The notes under the pieces were generated by a model. The model made no database searches and was not told the origin of the DNA. It saw only the letters and a list, made by a program, of their open reading frames with translations. From an uncultured bacterium (lineage in GTDB: Bacteria > Patescibacteriota > Minisyncoccia > Moranbacterales > UBA1568), in contig CALMHZ010000001.1 of assembly GCA_937864125.1 (NCBI GenBank), positions 1 through 36,498 of the forward strand: a DNA stretch of 36,498 nucleotides, read 5' to 3'. Position 1 is the first letter of the stretch; each line of letters begins with the position of its first letter. The position numbers and the translations under genes were made by a program. Positions 1,715 to 26,220 of this stretch are shown here, one piece after another.

Positions 1715-3466
1715 ATGGATGAGCCAGCCACCTCAAAAAAAGAAATCAAAAAAGATTCTGTCACTACGGCTCCCTTGAGCGAGCACTCCACGGCGGTCAC
1801 GCCTAAGGCTCCTTCGAAAACCGTGGCTCCGAAGGATGATCTCGAAAGCAAGGCTGCCGCTTTTGGTATTCCTCTTTTGAAAACGGCTCCGAGCAAGATT
1901 GATAAAAAAACTCTCGTCTTCATATCCGAAGATACCGCGCGCAAGTATCGCATGGCGGTTTTTTCCAAAGAAAAGGATACTTTGAAAGTCGCCATGGTCG
2001 ATCCGGAGAATTTTGAGGCCCTCAATATCCTCCGGTTTTTGGCGGAGAAAGAGCAGTTGAATATAGAGATTTCCCTGGCGGGAGAAGAGGCGATAGAGGA
2101 GATGCTTAAACAGTATTCGGGGGCGGATCGCGCCTTGAACGAGGCTATCATCTCACTCAAGAAAGACGGTATCTCGGAAGTGTCCCTCACCCGCGACGAT
2201 GAGGATGTCCCGGGATCGGAAGTGAACCAAGAGATCCTGCAGGACGCGCCGATAGCGAGATTGGTGGAAGCGATCGTCACCCATGCCATCGAGGCTCGGG
2301 CGAGCGATATCCATATAGAATTGGCGGAAGACAGCTATCGGGTCCGGTTCCGCGTCGACGGGCTGCTTCATTCCTCGCTGGTGTTTCCCTTGCAGGTAGG
2401 CCGCGCGGTGGTCGCGCGCATCAAGATACTGTCGAATTTGAAAATAGACGAAAAACGCAAGCCTCAAGACGGCCGGTTCCGAGCGACGAGCAACGGGAAG
2501 ACGGTCGATCTCCGCGTATCCACTCTGCCGGTCGTGGATGGGGAAAAAGTCGTCATGCGCGTGTTGGAAAAGACCAACAACACGGTTGATTTCAAGGAAA
2601 TGGGTTTGTGGGGTCGCAACGGGGAGCTCTTGCGGAAAAAGATCATCGAGCCCTATGGCATTATCCTTATGACCGGGCCTACCGGATCCGGGAAATCGAC
2701 CACCCTGTATTCCTTTTTGCAGATCTTGAACCAAGAAGAGCGCAATATCATAACGCTCGAAGATCCGGTCGAGTATTCCATAAACGGCATCAACCAAAGC
2801 CAGGTGCAACCGGAAATAGGATATACCTTCGCCAACGGCCTCCGTTCCATCCTTCGTCAGGATCCCAATGTGATCATGGTCGGAGAAATCCGCGATAATG
2901 AAACGGCGGAACTCGCGATCCACGCGGCGCTGACCGGGCACCTCGTGCTCTCGACGCTCCACACCAATAGCGCTCTCGGGTCCATTCCTCGATTGGTCGA
3001 CATGGGCATCGAACCTTTCCTCATAGGCTCATCGATACAGGTCGTAGCCGCGCAGCGGCTCGTGCGTCGGATATGCCTTGCCTGCAAAGAGGAGCAGCCG
3101 GTGACTCCGAAGCTCCTCAAAAAATTGAAGGATCTGGTGGACGCGATTCCGAAAGCGGAAACGGCGAAGTATGGATATGAGAGTGGCAAACCGATCAAGC
3201 TTTATAAAGGGAAAGGGTGCGATGCCTGCGGCAATACCGGCTACAAAGGGCGGATTGCGATTTATGAGGCTCTCGAGGTGACCGACGAGGTGAAGAACAT
3301 CATCATCGACGAAAAAAACATAGAGGGGATGCTCACCCCGGAGGCCGCGCGGCAGGGGATGCTCTCGTTGCGGGAAGACGGTGTCCTGAAGGCGTTGACT
3401 GGGGTTACGACGCTCATCGAGGTGGAGCGGGTCACGGAAGGATCGGTATTGGTTGATGAGGAATAA
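1715..3466 (+). CDS. pilB: Type IV pilus extension ATPase PilB/GspE
   Basis: ASDIHIE, PQDGRF, Walker A GPTGSGKST, TLEDPVEY, LRQDPNVIMVGEIRD, GHLVLSTLHTN and a tetracysteine motif (CLAC...CDAC). Confidence 0.96.
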   Translation: MDEPATSKKEIKKDSVTTAPLSEHSTAVTPKAPSKTVAPKDDLESKAAAFGIPLLKTAPSKIDKKTLVFISEDTARKYRMAVFSKEKDTLKVAMVDPENFEALNILRFLAEKEQLNIEISLAGEEAIEEMLKQYSGADRALNEAIISLKKDGISEVSLTRDDEDVPGSEVNQEILQDAPIARLVEAIVTHAIEARASDIHIELAEDSYRVRFRVDGLLHSSLVFPLQVGRAVVARIKILSNLKIDEKRKPQDGRFRATSNGKTVDLRVSTLPVVDGEKVVMRVLEKTNNTVDFKEMGLWGRNGELLRKKIIEPYGIILMTGPTGSGKSTTLYSFLQILNQEERNIITLEDPVEYSINGINQSQVQPEIGYTFANGLRSILRQDPNVIMVGEIRDNETAELAIHAALTGHLVLSTLHTNSALGSIPRLVDMGIEPFLIGSSIQVVAAQRLVRRICLACKEEQPVTPKLLKKLKDLVDAIPKAETAKYGYESGKPIKLYKGKGCDACGNTGYKGRIAIYEALEVTDEVKNIIIDEKNIEGMLTPEAARQGMLSLREDGVLKALTGVTTLIEVERVTEGSVLVDEE

Positions 3467-20744: not shown

Positions 20745-21962
20745 TTGAATGACAAAAAACCTATGTCCGAACAAGAACAGAAAATCGACGAGACCTTGAC
20801 CCGCGGCGTAGCCGAGGTCATTGAGGGGGAGCATCTGAAGAAGCGCCTGCTTGGGGGCGAGAAGCTCCGGGTCAAGTTCGGTATCGATCCGACGAGCCCC
20901 TCTATCCATCTCGGGCGCGCGGTGTCGCTTCTTAAGCTCCGTGATTTCCAGGAGCTCGGATGCGAGATCGTCTTCATCGTGGGGGACTTCACCGGGACGA
21001 TCGGGGACACGAGCGACAAGGAGAGCGAGCGGCCCATGCTCGACGCGGAGACCGTTCAAAGGAACATGGAAACATATACGATACAGGCGGCCAAGATTCT
21101 CGATTTCGCAGGCGTCGAAGTGCGGTTCAATGCCGAATGGCTTGCCCGTCTCGATTACAAGGAAATTCTCGGACAAGCAGAGGCATTTTCGCTTCATGAT
21201 TTCATCTCTCGGGAGAATATCAAAAAACGACTCGACTCAGGAAAGCGTGTTTCGCTTCGGGAGCTTCTCTATCCGCTCATGCAGGGGCATGACAGCGTCG
21301 TCGTGAAGTCCGATGTCGAGATAGGCGGAAGCGATCAATGGTTCAATTTGCTCGCGGGGCGCAAGCTCCAAGAGCGCGCCGGACAGGCGCCGCAGGATAT
21401 CCTCACGACTGATCTTATCCTCGGAACCGATGGGCGTAAAATGAGCTCGAGCTGGGGAAATACGATCAACATCCTCGACGAACCGAATGATATGTTCGGC
21501 AAGGTGATGAGTCTCCCTGACACGCTTCTTGAAAGCTATTTTATACACTGCACCAGGATTCCGATGGAAAGAGTGAAAGAATTCCTGAAAGCTGATAATC
21601 CGCGCGACGCGAAGCTTCGGCTCGCCCATGAGATCGTGTCGCTTTATCATGGTGCCAAAGAAGCGGCAGACGCGGAAGCCTATTTCATAGATAACTTTTC
21701 GAAAGGAAAGATCCCGAATGATATTCCGGAGCTCGCGGTCGGCTATGAAGGGGATACCCGGAAATTTGAAAGTCTTGAATCCTTTATCGTCCGCATCGGA
21801 TTCGCCGCAAGCAAATCGGACGCGAGGAGGAAGATCGAGCAAGGCGGCGTCTCTCTCGATGGCGAGAAGGTAGCTGCCGAAGGGTTCATCTTTGATAAGG
21901 AAGCGCACGACGGGAAAGTGCTGAAAGTGGGAAAAAAGGATTTTGCAAGAATCGTATTCTAA
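20745..21962 (+). CDS. tyrS: Tyrosine--tRNA ligase
   Basis: GIDPTSPSIHLGR (HIGH), YPLMQGHD, GGSDQWFN, KMSSS and a C-terminal S4 domain. The start may be ATG 20763. Confidence 0.97.
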   Translation: MNDKKPMSEQEQKIDETLTRGVAEVIEGEHLKKRLLGGEKLRVKFGIDPTSPSIHLGRAVSLLKLRDFQELGCEIVFIVGDFTGTIGDTSDKESERPMLDAETVQRNMETYTIQAAKILDFAGVEVRFNAEWLARLDYKEILGQAEAFSLHDFISRENIKKRLDSGKRVSLRELLYPLMQGHDSVVVKSDVEIGGSDQWFNLLAGRKLQERAGQAPQDILTTDLILGTDGRKMSSSWGNTINILDEPNDMFGKVMSLPDTLLESYFIHCTRIPMERVKEFLKADNPRDAKLRLAHEIVSLYHGAKEAADAEAYFIDNFSKGKIPNDIPELAVGYEGDTRKFESLESFIVRIGFAASKSDARRKIEQGGVSLDGEKVAAEGFIFDKEAHDGKVLKVGKKDFARIVF

Positions 21963-21984
21963 TCCTCTCTTGATTCGCGGGAAA

Positions 21985-22125
21985 AGCAAAAACCCCCAAT
22001 GCAGGGGCGCATATGGATCCCGTGAAAACAAAGTGCGGAAAAATAATATTTTCCCTGAATTGCCAGGTGGGTTCCATGCTGTCGCCGAGGCGACATTGTT
22101 CAGCGCACCGTTCTGGAGGTTTCTT
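21985..22125 (-). ncRNA. Candidate structured ncRNA, 6S-RNA-like (apparently circularly permuted)
   Basis: Minus-strand promoter upstream; 5'/3' pairing AGAAACCUCCA/UGGGGGUUUUU; inner helix AUGGAACCC/GGGAUCCAU enclosing two hairpins and a U-rich single strand. Confidence 0.55.
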
Positions 22126-22130
22126 CTTCC

Positions 22131-22158
22131 AGTATAGCATTTCATTTTTTTCTGTCAC
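22131..22158 (-). promoter_or_regulatory. Promoter for the candidate ncRNA
   Basis: Minus strand GTGACA (22158-22153), 16 bp spacer, TATACT (22136-22131) with TGC extension. Confidence 0.6.
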
Positions 22159-22214
22159 GCATCCGGAGAAATTTCCCTTTGAAGCGCCGGCATGTATTTC
22201 TCGGCCTCTTTCTT

Positions 22215-22243
22215 TTGACCGAACGGCGCTTTCTTTGTACACT
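22215..22243 (+). promoter_or_regulatory. pheST promoter
   Basis: TTGACC (22215-22220), 17 bp spacer, TACACT (22238-22243). Confidence 0.65.
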
Positions 22244-22269
22244 GTAGCTATCATTTGGGAATTACTTTC

Positions 22270-23304
22270 ATGGTGAAGGAGAATATCGCCCGTATTATCG
22301 AGGAGGGAAAAGAAGCATTTGCTCTGGCAACAGAAGAGATGGTCTTTGCCGAACTTGAAAAAAAGTATCTGGGCCGAAAAAGCGATCTCTCGGACATTCT
22401 CAAGGGATTGAAGGATTTGTCGCCGGAAGAAAAGCGGGAGGCGGGGCCGCTTGCGAATGAGGGGAGATTGGTCCTCGAGAGGGCCGCGGAAGAGGCTCGG
22501 ACACGGATCGCTTCTTTCAAGCTTGCTTCCGAGGAGCATATCGATATAACCGTTCCGGGAAGAAAGCCTGCGGTGGGCCACCTTCATCCTATTACGCGCC
22601 TCACTCATGAGGTAGAGGATATTTTTTCGACTCTCGGATTTTCGGTGGTCGGGGGACAGGAAGTCGAGACGGAATTTTATAATTTCGACGCCCTTAATAT
22701 TCCCTCCGATCACCCGGCGCGTGATATGCAGGATACCTTTTGGATAGATTCGGAAGGATTGGATTCGCAGTATGTCTTGCGGACCCATACCTCTTCGGTG
22801 CAGGTGCGGTATATGGAGGCCCATACGCCCCCTTTTCGCATCGTGATTCCGGGGCGCGCGTTCCGCAATGAGGCGACTGACGCTTCCCACGAGCACACCT
22901 ATCACCAGTTCGAATGTCTCATGGTGGACGAGAGGGGAAAAGTGACCGTCGCGCATTTCAAGCATATCGCCGAGATGTTTTTCCGCGAATTTTTCGGACG
23001 CGATGTGAAAGTCAGGCTTCGGCCGAGCTTTTTTCCTTTCACCGAGCCGTCGTTCGAGTTTGATATCTCGTGCATTCTCTGCGACGCGAAGGGGTGCCCG
23101 GTGTGCAAGCAGTCAGGATGGCTCGAGATCGGCGGCGCGGGCATGATTCATCAGAAAGTATTCGAGAAGGCGGGATATGACGCGGGGAAATACCAGGGGT
23201 TCGCGTGGGGATTCGGCCTTACCCGGCTCGCGATGATGAAATACGGGGTCACCGATATCCGTCTCTTCATGGACGGGGATATACGGTTCATACGACAATT
23301 CTGA
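22270..23304 (+). CDS. pheS: Phenylalanine--tRNA ligase alpha subunit
   Basis: GHLHPI, HPARDMQDTF, LRTHTSSVQ, RPSFFPFTEPS and GFAWGFGLTR. Confidence 0.98.
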   Translation: MVKENIARIIEEGKEAFALATEEMVFAELEKKYLGRKSDLSDILKGLKDLSPEEKREAGPLANEGRLVLERAAEEARTRIASFKLASEEHIDITVPGRKPAVGHLHPITRLTHEVEDIFSTLGFSVVGGQEVETEFYNFDALNIPSDHPARDMQDTFWIDSEGLDSQYVLRTHTSSVQVRYMEAHTPPFRIVIPGRAFRNEATDASHEHTYHQFECLMVDERGKVTVAHFKHIAEMFFREFFGRDVKVRLRPSFFPFTEPSFEFDISCILCDAKGCPVCKQSGWLEIGGAGMIHQKVFEKAGYDAGKYQGFAWGFGLTRLAMMKYGVTDIRLFMDGDIRFIRQF

Positions 23305-23369: not shown

Positions 23370-25733
23370 ATGAAATTCAGTTATAACTGGCTTACGGAAT
23401 TATCCGGCACGAAAAAGTCTCCCGAAGAACTCGCGGAGCTCCTGCTTACGCATTCCTTCGAGGTGGAGGAAGTACGTCCGTATGAGCATGGTCTTTCTGG
23501 CGTGGTGGTAGGCGAAGTCGTTGCGATCGCGCCGCATCCCAATGCCGATCGGTTGCGGGTCGCGCAGGTTTCGACGGGCGAGGAATCGCGACAGATCGTG
23601 TGCGGGGCTCCGAATATCGCCGTAGGGCAGAAAGTGGCCGTGGTGATGCCTGGCACGAAGCTTCAAAATGGAATGGAAATCGAGGCGGCTGAAATCCGCG
23701 GAGCAAGCTCGCTTGGGATGATCGCGTCGGAAGAGGAGCTGGGTATCGGTCAGGGAAAAGAAGGGATAGTTGTTCTTCCTCCGGATTCTCCAGTCGGCTC
23801 GCCGCTTGCGACGCTCCTCGGGCTTGACGATGTGATAGTGGATGTCAAAATCCTTCCCAATCGAGGCCGCGACGCGCTCTCGCACTTCGGGCTTGCAAGA
23901 GAAATTTCCGCCTTGGAGGGTCGGATCTTGGATCTTCCTTTTCCCCAAGAAAGATTTTCATCGGAACAAGGAGTACGGGATGCTTTCACTCTCTCGGTCG
24001 AGGCGAAAAGTGCCTGTCTTTTCTATGCAGGGTTACTTTTCGATCTCAGCACCGAAAAAAAATCGATATCTTTGGAGATGAAGGGCCGGATGCTGATGCT
24101 CGGGCATCACTCTCTTTTCCCGGCCGTCGACCTCGCGCAGTATTATTCGCTGCTCTATGGTCAGCCGATGCATGTTTTTGACGCGGATAAAATTTCAGGG
24201 CGGTCTCTCTCGGTTCGTTTCGCGCATCCGGGTGAAGTCCTCACCGTTCTTTCCGGGCATGAAATCACCTTAAGCGGAGAGGATATCGTTATCGCAGATA
24301 GCAAAGGACCGATAGCGCTTGCCGGTATCTCAGGAGGGAAAGAGAGCGCGGTATCGGAAGAGACGAAATCGGTCTGGGTTGAGATGGCGAATTTCGATCC
24401 CGCCGTGATCCGACGCTCTCGCGTGCGCCATGGGTTGCCTACGGCTGCCGCTTATTTGTTCGAGCACGGGGTAGATCCGATATGGCCGGCTATCTTGCCT
24501 TCTTCGCTTATACCCTCCTTTGAGAAGACCCTTGGCGCTCAGTACAAGGGAGGAGTCCGGTATCAAGGGAGCGAGGAAAAAGAAAAGCGCGTGATACATT
24601 TCTCCTTTGACCGCATCGAATCCACGCTTGGAATTGTCATCCCGAAGGAGAAAGTCATCTCTTTGCTTCGCGGTCTTTCGATCGGGGTGGAAATGAGCGG
24701 GGAGGAAATGACTCTTTCGATTCCTTCTTTCCGATCGGACCTTCTTGACGAGGTGGATATCATCGAGGAGATAGGCCGCGTCTACGGGTATGAGCACATT
24801 TCTCCGAGCATTCCTCTCGTACCCCTTCTTCTTTCGGAAGAAAACAAGGAAGAACAAATGAGTCGCGTCGCGCTTTCGGAGTGCGCGGCGCTCGGATTCG
24901 ATGAAATCATGACCTATTCTTTCTATGGCAAGGAAGAAAGGGAAGAAAGCGGAGTTCCTCTCGATGAGCATCTTCGCCTGCGGAATCCGATGAATCCGGA
25001 TCAGGCATATATGAGGGCGAAGCTTCTCCCGATGCTTTTCCGAAAAATGCGGGAAAATATGTATCGGAGCGAATCGCTTCGGCTGGTTGAGCGCGGAAAG
25101 GTATTTTTTCGCGAAGGAGCGGCTCCTCGCGAAGAAGACCACCTCGCGCTCGCTCTCTCGGAAAAGGAATCGGATGCGAGTGAGATTTTCTTCCGACTCA
25201 AAGGAATGGCGGAGCATCTCCTGGAAGTGTTGCGGATCGATACGGAGATCGCTTTTGTTCACGCGAAAAGCGCCCCTTCCTTCTTTCATCCCGGGAAAAC
25301 GGCGCAGGTAGTCGTCGAAGGAAAGGTGATAGGGATCATCGGAGAAGCGCATCCTGACTGTATGAAAAAATTCGGCGCGCGGAAAATGGCGGGAGCCGAG
25401 TTTTCACTCGACGCGATACGCGATCTTTCCTTGCGACCGCGCTCCATGCGTCCGTTGCCGAAGTTCCCTTTCGTTACGAGGGACATCTCTCTTCGAGTAC
25501 CCGAAGCGGTAACCGTAGCTTCTCTTGAGGAAGTGATCCGTCGCGCCGGACCGCCCCTTCTCAAGGAGTGCGTATTTTTTGATGTCTATGAAAAGGGTCG
25601 GGAAAAAAATATCTCTTTCCGTCTCGCGTTCGGTGCTGCCGATCGCACTATAGAAAAGACGGAGAGCGATCATGCGTTTGAACATATAGTGGAAGAAGCG
25701 GAGAGTGTTTTGGGCGCGCAGCTTTCCTTATGA
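23370..25733 (+). CDS. pheT: Phenylalanine--tRNA ligase beta subunit
   Basis: MKFSYNWL, HPNADRL, IVCGAPN, PNRGRDALSHFGLARE, DIIEEIGRVYGYE and C-terminal FDX-ACB (PKFPFVTRDIS). Confidence 0.96.
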   Translation: MKFSYNWLTELSGTKKSPEELAELLLTHSFEVEEVRPYEHGLSGVVVGEVVAIAPHPNADRLRVAQVSTGEESRQIVCGAPNIAVGQKVAVVMPGTKLQNGMEIEAAEIRGASSLGMIASEEELGIGQGKEGIVVLPPDSPVGSPLATLLGLDDVIVDVKILPNRGRDALSHFGLAREISALEGRILDLPFPQERFSSEQGVRDAFTLSVEAKSACLFYAGLLFDLSTEKKSISLEMKGRMLMLGHHSLFPAVDLAQYYSLLYGQPMHVFDADKISGRSLSVRFAHPGEVLTVLSGHEITLSGEDIVIADSKGPIALAGISGGKESAVSEETKSVWVEMANFDPAVIRRSRVRHGLPTAAAYLFEHGVDPIWPAILPSSLIPSFEKTLGAQYKGGVRYQGSEEKEKRVIHFSFDRIESTLGIVIPKEKVISLLRGLSIGVEMSGEEMTLSIPSFRSDLLDEVDIIEEIGRVYGYEHISPSIPLVPLLLSEENKEEQMSRVALSECAALGFDEIMTYSFYGKEEREESGVPLDEHLRLRNPMNPDQAYMRAKLLPMLFRKMRENMYRSESLRLVERGKVFFREGAAPREEDHLALALSEKESDASEIFFRLKGMAEHLLEVLRIDTEIAFVHAKSAPSFFHPGKTAQVVVEGKVIGIIGEAHPDCMKKFGARKMAGAEFSLDAIRDLSLRPRSMRPLPKFPFVTRDISLRVPEAVTVASLEEVIRRAGPPLLKECVFFDVYEKGREKNISFRLAFGAADRTIEKTESDHAFEHIVEEAESVLGAQLSL

Positions 25734-25857: not shown

Positions 25858-26220
25858 TCCTGAAACAGGTCGAACTATCGCGTGTGCCGCAGGGCACATG
25901 AGGAAAGTCCGGACTCCCGCTCGGCCTTCGGCCGTGCAGCAGGTAATAGGTAACCCCTATACACCGCGAGGTGCGAGGTGCGAACAGTGACGCCCACATC
26001 CGAAAGGATGCGGGGCGTCCCGCAAAAGGCGGGGCGTAATCATCGGCACATGGTGCCGATGGGTGAAACGGCTAAATCCTTACCCGGGTGCAAGGTCGTG
26101 CCCCTTCAGTGTTTCGCAAGAGATGCGAAAAGGGGAGAACCGCAAGAATCGTCTGGCGACAGACGATCCAGACAAATGATAGTTGAGACACAGAATCCGG
26201 CTTATGAGCCTGTTTCAGGA
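25858..26220 (+). ncRNA. rnpB: RNase P RNA
   Basis: Universal P4 halves GAGGAAAGTCCGG (25900-25912) and ACAGAATCCGGCTTAT (26190-26205); P1 helix TCCTGAAACAGG/CCTGTTTCAGGA. Confidence 0.95.

What the first reader, a model, noticed from the sequence alone, without database searches (positions are those of the whole stretch)
21985..22158. Unannotated minus-strand RNA with the topology of a circularly permuted 6S RNA
Seen in sequence: an antisense unit in the tyrS-pheS gap with a promoter (GTGACA-16-TGC TATACT) predicting +1 near 22124. The 5' end AGAAACCUCCA (22124-22114) pairs with the 3' end UGGGGGUUUUU (21998-21988). An inner helix AUGGAACCC (22077-22069) / GGGAUCCAU (22021-22013) closes a bubble made of A-CCUG-gcaauu-CAGG, a short hairpin GGAAAAUA..UAUUUUUCC, and the single-stranded GCACUUUGUUUUCAC. 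Established: 6S RNA is an irregular rod with a central bubble mimicking an open promoter. From my recall of 6S alignments, the order is U/A-rich 5' bubble strand, GGGA helix, apical arm, then ACCCACCU plus hairpin. Inference: here the same elements appear in the opposite linear order, with the RNA ends in the long apical arm and the usual closing stem replaced by a short hairpin. That would be a permuted, miniaturised (~140 nt) RNA polymerase decoy, which linear covariance models could miss.
Basis: partly seen in the sequence, partly recalled or inferred. Interest (0 to 1): 0.82.

Follow-up and report, generated by a model that had tools for sequence, protein, structure and literature searches.

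The report
Naturally circularly permuted 6S RNA gene
Between tyrS and pheS of this tiny Moranbacteria-type (CPR) genome lies a real, conserved small RNA gene that carries the hallmark motifs of 6S RNA, the RNA that mimics an open promoter and sequesters RNA polymerase, but with its two halves in swapped order, which would explain why standard searches find no 6S RNA in this lineage.

Summary
Window 22126-21988 (minus strand) is a stand-alone ~139-nt RNA gene with a sigma-70-type promoter and a closing stem ending in a U tract.

It occurs once per genome in 78 of 151 genomes of the window's order, and in 5 of 5 genomes of one family from another order of the class. Gene neighbours vary between lineages. 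Covariation in the long arm is strong (19 of 29 pairs compensatory in 38 sequences).

No Rfam family matches. However, the RF00013 consensus and canonical 6S RNAs from the same phylum show that both sides of the 6S central bubble are present and collinear, but in swapped order:
- the GGG/CCC pair;
- CCCACCUGG plus a small hairpin;
- CC-GA followed by a 13-16-nt A/U-rich strand.

A profile of 22 canonical CPR 6S RNAs hit 36 of 43 members with its 3' half and 18 of 43 with its 5' half. All 13 members with both hits had them in swapped order. Shuffled and reverse-complement controls gave no hits.

Canonical 6S was found in 0 of 151 genomes of the order, and never together with this RNA.

An engineered permuted B. 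subtilis 6S-1 RNA is known to work in vitro. RNA polymerase binding and pRNA synthesis remain untested here.

Verdict: a natural circularly permuted 6S RNA, a new variant of a known kind.

The parts
22131..22158 (-). Sigma-70-type promoter: -35 GTGACA (22158-22153), 16-nt spacer, extended -10 TG-c-TATACT (TG 22139-22138, hexamer 22136-22131).
   Evidence: 10 of 12 matches, TG present. By eye, -10-like hexamers sit at the same distance in all 43 homologous loci, many with a TTGAC -35.
21988..22126 (-). The RNA itself, about 139 nt. The predicted start is near 22126-22123 and the end lies in the U tract 21992-21988.
   Evidence: Covariance-model hit 21988-22126 at 114.7 bits and 110.1 bits. Fold z = -3.59.
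22113..22124 (-). P1 5' strand. With 21999-21988 it forms the outer end of the long arm, which corresponds to the apical arm (upstream-duplex mimic) of canonical 6S opened at its loop.
   Evidence: 8 of 11 pairs show compensatory changes and 7 of 11 in a second sequence set.
21988..21999 (-). P1 3' strand, including the terminal U tract (21992-21988) that pairs with the 5' A run. It probably also serves as the intrinsic terminator.
22110..22112 (-). 5' side (AAC) of a sequence-conserved internal loop between P1 and P2. The 3' side is UGCA at 22003-22000. By distance from the bubble it is a candidate '-35-like' contact; this is inference only.
   Evidence: Conserved columns AGAAYGG / YGCAUUG in alignments A1 and A3.
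22103..22109 (-). P2 5' strand; pairs with 22010-22004, with one U-C mismatch in the window copy.
   Evidence: all 6 modelled P2 pairs show compensatory changes.
22004..22010 (-). P2 3' strand.
22080..22095 (-). P2a, a lineage-specific hairpin inserted in the junction between P2 and P3. It is absent in most families and is replaced by inserts of up to about 100 nt in others.
22069..22077 (-). P3 5' strand AUGGAACCC. Its CCC (22071-22069) corresponds to the invariant CCC of canonical 6S.
   Evidence: 5 of 7 modelled pairs are compensatory, and the three C-G pairs next to the bubble are invariant.
22013..22021 (-). P3 3' strand GGGAUCCAU. Its GGG (22021-22019) corresponds to the invariant GGG that follows the A/U-rich strand in canonical 6S.
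22054..22068 (-). Equivalent of the canonical 3' bubble strand (non-template, '-10-like' in canonical 6S): ACCUGG, a loop, then CAGG, able to form the small hairpin P4 (CCUG/CAGG).
   Evidence: Same letters as the most conserved block of RF00013. HMM hits in 36 of 43 members. Alignment A6.
22037..22054 (-). P5, an A/U hairpin (GGAAAA, loop, UUUUCC). It is the equivalent of the bubble-proximal part of the canonical closing stem (downstream-duplex mimic), capped by a loop.
   Evidence: The pairs are invariant, so covariation does not prove them. It aligns with the closing-stem strands of the same-class canonical 6S.
22022..22036 (-). Equivalent of the canonical 5' bubble strand (the template strand for pRNA in canonical 6S): 15 nt, A/U-rich, preceded by CC and followed by GGG.
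   Evidence: Across 93 members its length is 13-16 nt and it is 75% A+U.

Best explanation
Window 22126-21988 (minus strand) encodes a natural circularly permuted homologue of 6S RNA (SsrS).

In canonical 6S the order is: closing stem 5' strand, A/U-rich bubble strand, GGG plus apical arm, CCC, ACCUGG hairpin strand, closing stem 3' strand. Here the apical arm is open and carries the RNA's 5' and 3' ends (P1-P3). The closing stem is reduced to a capped A/U hairpin (P5). The three-dimensional layout of an open-promoter mimic is therefore kept while the linear order is swapped.

Inferred mechanism, by homology and not shown here:
- The RNA binds the sigma-70-type RNA polymerase holoenzyme.
- The long arm P3-P2-P1 takes the place of upstream promoter DNA.
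- The ACCUGG hairpin strand takes the place of the non-template -10 strand.
- The 13-16-nt A/U-rich strand serves as template.
- P5 takes the place of downstream DNA.
- When NTPs are plentiful, the polymerase would copy the template strand into P5 (pRNA). [quoted passage not shown]

The most economical origin is a tandem duplication of a canonical ssrS gene followed by loss of the outer halves (inference).
For: 1. It is a real independent gene.
- Promoter and U-tract end are present.
- By eye, a -10-like box sits at a fixed distance in 43 of 43 printed homologous loci.
- Every genome with a hit has exactly one match: 78 of 151 genomes of the order.
- Gene neighbours differ between lineages.

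2. It is structured.
- 96.4% of cells are paired, 19 of 29 pairs are compensatory, and 0 of 500 shuffles reach this in 38 sequences.
- In 68 further distinct sequences, 94.6% are paired and 16 of 29 pairs are compensatory.

3. It carries the 6S signature.
- The RF00013 consensus reads CC-gA, a 16-nt A/U-rich strand, GGG, [arm], CCC-ACCUgg-loop-CaGG. The window has the same blocks.
- Half-by-half alignments with canonical CPR 6S, including one from the same class, are collinear.

4. The order is permuted.
- An nhmmer profile of 22 canonical CPR 6S RNAs hit 36 of 43 members with its 3' half, at member positions about 34-70.
- It hit 18 of 43 with its 5' half, at positions about 57-135.
- All 13 members with both hits had them in swapped order.
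- There were 0 hits in 20 dinucleotide-shuffled sets and 0 on the reverse complement.

5. The phyletic pattern is complementary.
- RF00013 matched 0 of 151 genomes in the order, 22 of 151 in the phylum sample and 7 of 151 in the class sample.
- The permuted model gave strong hits only in the order and in family f108, 5 of 5.
- No genome had both.

6. The architecture is feasible. An engineered circularly permuted B. subtilis 6S-1 with a capping loop on helix P2 still bound RNA polymerase, templated 14/15-nt pRNAs and was released (PMC8876501, section 3.1 read).

7. The G-A-run strand of P5 plus its loop is complementary to the A/U-rich strand of the same molecule more than to that of other members. 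Own mean is -4.11 against -3.10 kcal/mol, with 0 of 5000 permutations as good. For 15 dissimilar representatives the figure is 32 of 5000.
Against: - No RF00013 match at E <= 10 in the region or the genome.
- The proposed Infernal test on a rearranged sequence was not run.
- The profile hits are weak. The best is 13.7 bits, and the 5' half hits have E = 0.004-0.05 in only 18 of 43 members.
- E-values refer to a 5.6-kb target set of related sequences, so the counts are not independent.
- Beyond the first helix, the arms do not align with canonical arms.
- P5 has only 5-7 pairs, all invariant, so it has no covariation support.
- In the B. subtilis experiment the capped, permuted variant bound about 10-fold more weakly than the full-length RNA. 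It also made pRNA particularly poorly, which the authors put down to the capping loop.
- The collapse-helix complementarity loses significance when the A run is trimmed to two A plus the loop (587 of 5000 permutations as good).
- There are no expression data.
- About half of the order's sampled genomes, including family f3 at 0 of 19, show neither form.
- RF00013 is insensitive in this class (7 of 151), so its absence from the order is only moderately informative.
Confidence: 0.78

Rival explanations
1. The RNA descends from 6S by permutation but has been repurposed. It no longer sequesters RNA polymerase and instead works as a different ribonucleoprotein or regulatory RNA. The conserved loop or the U-rich strands would then serve as binding sites, and the A-run/U-run alternative helix would act as a switch.
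For: The downstream-duplex mimic is very short and capped, a feature that impaired pRNA synthesis in the engineered variant. The P5 sequence, the UUUUUCCG block and the internal loop AGAAYGG/YGCAUUG are conserved at sequence level rather than only as pairs. An alternative helix competes with P5.
Against: The blocks that are kept unchanged are exactly those that define the RNA polymerase-contacting bubble of 6S. Bubble strand lengths are kept at 13-16 nt. No canonical 6S remains in these genomes to do the original job.
Confidence: 0.12
2. It is an unrelated structured small RNA of unknown partner that resembles 6S only by convergence or chance.
For: There is no Rfam match. The profile similarities are short, 13.7 bits at most. 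Arms outside the bubble are not alignable to canonical arms.
Against: Two separate blocks match in the right mutual geometry: the GGG pairs with the CCC, a hairpin follows ACCUGG, and CC-GA precedes an A/U strand of canonical length. Shuffles gave 0 hits. The closest resemblance is to the canonical 6S of the same class. The distribution is complementary to canonical 6S.
Confidence: 0.07
3. It is a cis-acting or antisense regulatory element of the tyrS-pheS region, such as a leader, attenuator or antisense RNA.
For: It lies in the 292-nt tyrS-pheS gap, divergent from pheS and convergent with tyrS. The pheS-like neighbour is kept in 8 loci of the same family.
Against: In other families the neighbours are entirely different. 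The RNA has its own promoter and terminator and does not overlap either coding sequence. The plus-strand fold of the gap is unremarkable (z = -1.26). No T-box or leader family matches.
Confidence: 0.01
4. It is the missing SRP (4.5S) RNA of this genome.
For: No SRP RNA was found in the genome. The RNA is a single-copy rod with paired ends.
Against: No SRP54-family protein was found with PF02978, PF00448, TIGR00959 or the E. coli Ffh protein. SecY, used as a positive control, was found at 352.7 bits. There is no conserved apical tetraloop or domain-IV-like loop; the loops of P4 and P5 vary freely. RF00169 and RF01854 did not match the region at E <= 10.
Confidence: 0.01

Closest known systems
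Canonical 6S RNA (SsrS, Rfam RF00013), in particular the canonical copies of other Patescibacteria such as the same-class genome G217 (locus L074)
   Same: It shares the invariant GGG/CCC pair closing the bubble on the long-arm side, and CCCACCUGG followed by a small hairpin on one bubble strand. The other strand is CC-GA followed by an A/U-rich run of about 15 nt. It is a rod with two helical arms, present once per genome, with its own sigma-70-type promoter and U-tract end.
   Different: The linear order of the halves is swapped. The 5'/3' ends lie in what is the apical arm of canonical 6S. The closing stem is a capped hairpin of 5-7 pairs rather than a long stem with the ends. It is shorter, with a median of 123 nt against 142-197 nt. 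RF00013 does not detect it.
6S82cp, an engineered circularly permuted and truncated B. subtilis 6S-1 RNA (Ganapathy et al. 2022, PMC8876501; abstract, section 3.1 and the Figure 1/2 legend passages returned by the search were read)
   Same: The topology is the same: the helix on the pRNA-template side of the bubble is capped by a loop and the ends are moved to the other arm. That construct bound sigma-A RNA polymerase, templated 14/15-nt pRNAs and was released.
   Different: The engineered RNA is artificial, 82 nt long and lacks the '-35-like' arm. It bound about 10-fold more weakly than the full-length RNA and made pRNA poorly. The natural RNA keeps a long, covarying arm of about 27 pairs and is conserved over at least two orders.
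Circularly permuted (two-piece) tmRNA genes and permuted tRNA genes
   Same: These are precedents for a housekeeping RNA gene whose halves are swapped in the genome while the folded architecture is kept.
   Different: As recalled, those RNAs are cut or spliced into two pieces or re-joined. Here a single continuous transcript with a new loop and new ends is predicted.

Membership tests
6S RNA (Rfam RF00013) | Scores at or above the family's covariance-model gathering threshold (46.4 bits). | tested here: not met
   No match at gathering score in the window. No match at E <= 10 in 21850-22350 or in the whole genome. A swapped linear order is expected to defeat a linear model. The rearranged sequence could not be scored.
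6S RNA (Rfam RF00013) | Conserved sequence signature around the central bubble: a GGG...CCC pair, CCCACCUGG plus a small hairpin on one strand, and CC-GA plus an A/U-rich run of about 15 nt on the other. | tested here: met
   Consensus seen. Alignments A5 and A6. HMM hits in 36 of 43 members (3' half) and 18 of 43 (5' half), with 0 in shuffles. Strand length is 13-16 nt at 75% A+U.
6S RNA (Rfam RF00013) | Canonical linear order, with the RNA ends in the closing stem and a loop on the apical arm. | tested here: not met
   All 13 members that hit both halves have them in swapped order. The ends are in P1 and the loop is on P5.
6S RNA (Rfam RF00013) | A rod of two helical arms flanking a large bubble, supported by covariation. 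| tested here: met
   The long arm P1-P3 has 19 of 29 pairs compensatory and 16 of 29 in a second set. The short arm P5 is invariant, so it is consistent with pairing but unproven.
6S RNA (Rfam RF00013) | Binds the housekeeping sigma holoenzyme of RNA polymerase. | not testable with these tools
   This needs a gel shift or co-purification.
6S RNA (Rfam RF00013) | Templates pRNA and is released through a refolding helix (the 'central bubble collapse helix'). | tested here: inconclusive
   The complementarity expected for such a helix is present (0 of 5000 permutations as good; 32 of 5000 for 15 dissimilar representatives). It is not significant once the A run is trimmed (587 of 5000). pRNA itself is not testable here.
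6S RNA (Rfam RF00013) | One housekeeping copy per genome, replacing rather than accompanying a canonical copy. | tested here: met
   One match per positive genome. No genome has both forms in the order, class or phylum samples.
Bacterial SRP RNA (RF00169 / RF01854) | Match to an SRP RNA model and presence of the Ffh partner. | tested here: not met
Cis-regulatory leader or antisense RNA of tyrS/pheS | Constant linkage to the regulated gene across genomes. | tested here: not met
   Neighbours differ between families.

The most novel reading that the evidence does not exclude
This would be the first natural circularly permuted 6S RNA. Its downstream-duplex mimic is a closed hairpin of 5-7 pairs, mostly A-U. 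RNA polymerase must therefore transcribe into and around a capped hairpin, using a release mechanism that differs from canonical 6S. For example, a pRNA of about 12 nt may be enough to melt the whole hairpin, with the freed A-rich strand snapping onto the template strand. If so, many lineages reported to 'lack 6S' may carry permuted or otherwise rearranged versions that linear covariance models cannot see.
Probability: 0.35. Interest if true: 0.88.

Novelty: new variant of a known kind. Interest (0 to 1): 0.78.

Why it matters
6S RNA is a widespread global regulator of bacterial transcription, yet it goes undetected in many lineages.

- A natural permuted form shows that the open-promoter mimic tolerates complete rewiring of its backbone. 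Until now this had only been shown with an engineered construct.
- It explains an apparent absence of 6S in a large group of ultrasmall bacteria.
- It warns that linear covariance models under-report the family.
- It offers a compact natural scaffold of about 120 nt, with a capped template-side helix, for testing how pRNA synthesis drives release.
- It provides a clear case for studying how RNA genes become permuted, probably through tandem duplication.

Tried and rejected
**Rfam.** The window at gathering score gave only RNase P RNA. The region at E <= 10 gave only chance-level RyhB, S4 leader and RsmY hits.

**5S rRNA.** I considered this because of the CCCACCUG letters. It is rejected: a normal 5S gene is elsewhere in the genome and the topology differs.

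**SRP RNA.** Rejected; see the rival explanations.

**Plus-strand element** (pheS leader or tyrS terminator). The fold is unremarkable (z = -1.26).

**Rotation scan**. All circular rotations of each member were scored with the canonical HMM. The script crashed after one row. That row was uninformative (L007: native best hit 6.5 bits, best rotation 7.7 bits at cut 104), because nhmmer's local hits do not bridge the unalignable arm. I replaced it with the two-hit order test.

**Pairing of the P4 loop with the A/U strand.** There is a weak signal (own -1.81 against -1.33 kcal/mol, 11 of 5000 permutations as good). It overlaps the other alternative helix and I did not pursue it.

**Trimmed A-run test of the alternative helix.** Not significant (587 of 5000).

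**Family f3 of the order.** Neither RF00013 nor R2 was found in 5 genomes at E <= 1, apart from one 17-bit R2 hit at E = 1.

**Pattern scan of genome contigs.** Of the 80 listed loci, 11 were not R2 members. None holds an Rfam 6S. Ten of them look like chance matches inside coding DNA, and one (L100) is a truncated member.

**Sequencing runs.** No RNA holder was listed; there were 6 DNA runs with small shares.

**Literature.**
- '6S RNA' + 'circularly permuted': 4 papers; the only relevant one describes an engineered variant.
- '6S RNA' / Patescibacteria / candidate phyla radiation.
- '6S RNA' / Moranbacteria / Parcubacteria / permuted.

None of the listed papers describes a natural permuted 6S RNA.

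Full report
**Setting.** The window holds tyrS (20745-21962, +), a 292-nt gap, then pheS (22255-23304, +) and pheT (23370-25733, +). An RNase P RNA lies at 25862-26220. The genome is 840 kb in 97 contigs and is rated 100% complete. Record titles of related contigs name Candidatus Moranbacteria/Moraniibacteriota, of the Candidate Phyla Radiation.

**Observation.**
- On the minus strand, the scan found GTGACA-16-TATACT with an upstream TG at 22158-22131, and a terminator-like end with a U tract.
- The 139-nt RNA 22126-21988 folds at -52.1 kcal/mol, with z = -3.59 and 0 of 200 shuffles as good.
- The plus strand of the gap is unremarkable (z = -1.26).

**Conservation.**
- A DNA search with the gap found matches in 19 of 41 genomes, the window's own included. 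The matches were confined to the RNA part.
- A covariance model from 13 sequences (A1, R1) found exactly one copy in each of 78 of 151 genomes of the order. By family: f1 19/21, f4 15/20, f5 12/20, f6 17/20, f8 9/20, f9 5/20, f3 0/19, f10 0/5, f2 0/2, and f7, f11 and f12 0/1 each.
- A second model (R2, 38 sequences) found it in the class sample in 11 of 151 genomes. These were the 6 genomes of the window's order and all 5 of family f108 from another order, at 54-94 bits.
- In the phylum sample, R2 found only the two genomes of the order plus two weak hits of 30.2 and 27.9 bits.
Of the 80 listed, 69 are members by R2 at E <= 1e-5.

**It is a gene of its own.**
- By eye, all 43 loci printed have a -10-like hexamer ending 3-9 nt before the model start. 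It is often TGnTATAnT, and many loci have a TTGAC -35. All but a few end in a U tract.
- Neighbours are not conserved. The pheS-like gene is divergent upstream in 8 loci of family f1, and the tyrS-like gene is convergent downstream in 5. Other lineages share other neighbours or none. I assigned the pheS and tyrS clusters from their position in the window's own locus.

**Structure.**
- On 38 sequences, 96.4% of cells pair, against 87.1% in shuffles. 19 of 29 pairs have compensatory changes and 0 of 500 shuffles reach the covariation score. Sliding the partners by one column drops pairing to 62-66%.
- An independent set of 68 distinct sequences gives 94.6% paired and 16 of 29 compensatory.
- Both alignments were fitted to the model, which favours the structure. 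RNAalifold on a plain MAFFT alignment had already found P1, P2, P3 and P5, with 15 of 30 pairs compensatory.
- P1, P2 and P3 covary. The three C-G pairs of P3 next to the bubble and all P5 pairs are invariant.
- A variable hairpin (window 22095-22080) sits between P2 and P3 in some lineages.

**What it is.** No Rfam family matches, and RF00013 finds nothing in the genome at E <= 10. RF00013 does find canonical 6S RNAs elsewhere: in 22 of 151 genomes of the phylum sample (7 above threshold) and in 7 of 151 of the class sample.

The consensus printed with those hits reads: closing stem ending in CC, then gA and a 16-nt A/U-rich strand, GGG and the apical arm, CCC, ACCUgg-loop-CaGG, and the closing stem 3' strand.

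The window RNA reads: long-arm 5' strands, CCC, ACCUGG-loop-CAGG, an A/U hairpin ending in CC, G plus an A/U-rich strand of 15 nt, GGG, and the long-arm 3' strands.

Each half aligns collinearly with the opposite half of canonical CPR 6S. The similarity is closest to the copy of the same class (G217).

An nhmmer profile of 22 canonical CPR 6S RNAs gave the following:
- Its 3' half (profile positions about 94-130) hit 36 of 43 members at member positions about 34-70.
- Its 5' half (about 25-83) hit 18 of 43 at positions about 57-135.
- All 13 members with both hits had them in swapped order.
- Twenty dinucleotide-shuffled sets and the reverse complements gave no hit.

The members are related to one another, so these counts are not independent events, and the scores are low (13.7 bits at most).

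**Phyletic pattern.** Canonical 6S was found in 0 of 151 genomes of the order and 0 of 5 in f108. No genome in any of the three sample pairs had both forms. RF00013 is insensitive in this class (7 of 151), and about half of the order shows neither form. The pattern is therefore supportive rather than decisive.

**Mechanism (inferred).** In canonical 6S the 3' bubble strand mimics the -10 non-template strand. The arm beyond the GGG/CCC pair carries the '-35-like' region, and the helix on the other side contacts beta and beta' and is invaded by pRNA synthesis (PMC8876501, section 3.1).

Mapped onto this RNA:
- P3-P2-P1 (about 27 pairs) is the upstream mimic. Its sequence-conserved internal loop AGAAYGG/YGCAUUG lies about 17-20 pairs from the bubble.
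- Window 22068-22054 is the -10-like strand.
- Window 22036-22022 is the template strand.
- P5 is the downstream helix.

The same paper reports an engineered circularly permuted 6S-1 with a capping loop on that helix. It still bound RNA polymerase, made 14/15-nt pRNAs and was released, though weakly. That shows the architecture can work, and also that the cap has a cost.

The paper describes a 'central bubble collapse helix' between the 5' bubble strand and the freed 3' strand of the invaded helix. The corresponding segments here are the G-A run plus loop of P5 and the A/U-rich strand. Within a molecule they are more complementary than between molecules (0 of 5000 permutations as good; 32 of 5000 for 15 dissimilar representatives). 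The signal rests largely on matched A and U runs: it is lost (587 of 5000) when the A run is trimmed.

Across 93 parsed members, the template-like strand is 13-16 nt and 75% A+U. It starts with GAUA in 29, GUUA in 24 and GACA in 23.

**Novelty.** Three full-text searches found no natural permuted 6S RNA. Only the engineered variant is in print in the library searched. The finding is a new variant of a known kind.

**Limits.**
- The Infernal test on a rearranged sequence could not be run.
- No RNA data were available.
- The script machine was lost.

Noticed in passing
whole genome G000; order and phylum samples: No SRP system was detectable. In the window's own genome, small and large SRP RNA models gave nothing at E <= 10. 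PF02978 gave nothing. The only PF00448 and TIGR00959 hit is the P-loop of a Mur ligase. The E. coli Ffh protein gave nothing at E <= 1. SecY, as a positive control, scored 352.7 bits. The Ffh M domain was found in 0 of 151 genomes of the order and 0 of 151 of the phylum sample. If real, this is a phylum-wide loss of a near-universal machine. It could also be a blind spot of the tool's first-look filter. Two literature searches settled nothing.
   Followed up: partly
window 25862-26220 (+): A bacterial class A RNase P RNA (113.8 bits) lies directly downstream of pheT.
   Followed up: no
loci L011, L013, L055 (and window 22080-22095): The junction between P2 and P3 is an insertion hot spot. It carries nothing in most members, a 16-nt hairpin in the window's genus, and structured inserts of about 60-100 nt in others, with members up to 228 nt.
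   Followed up: no
L089, L096, L097, L103, L143 and others: Many public MAG records titled 'uncultured Bdellovibrionales', and one titled 'Micavibrio sp.', carry this Moranbacteria-type RNA at 93-116 bits. Those taxonomic labels look wrong.
   Followed up: no
canonical CPR 6S loci L060-L081: Many canonical 6S RNAs of this phylum share an apical loop motif CCGUGG on the long arm. The permuted form has its ends at that place.
   Followed up: no
L083 1501-1609 (genome G290, another family of the phylum): A weak R2 hit (30.2 bits) has a P1-like end helix and an ACCCA..CAGG block. It may be a second, divergent permuted lineage, or it may be chance.
   Followed up: partly
L100 about 3150-3300 (-): This is a member that is intact up to the CC-GA after P5 and then diverges: a truncated or disrupted copy, or a misassembly.
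   Followed up: no
window 22215-22243 (+): A promoter-like site, TTGACC-17-TACACT, lies just upstream of pheS and is divergent from the RNA's promoter.
   Followed up: no
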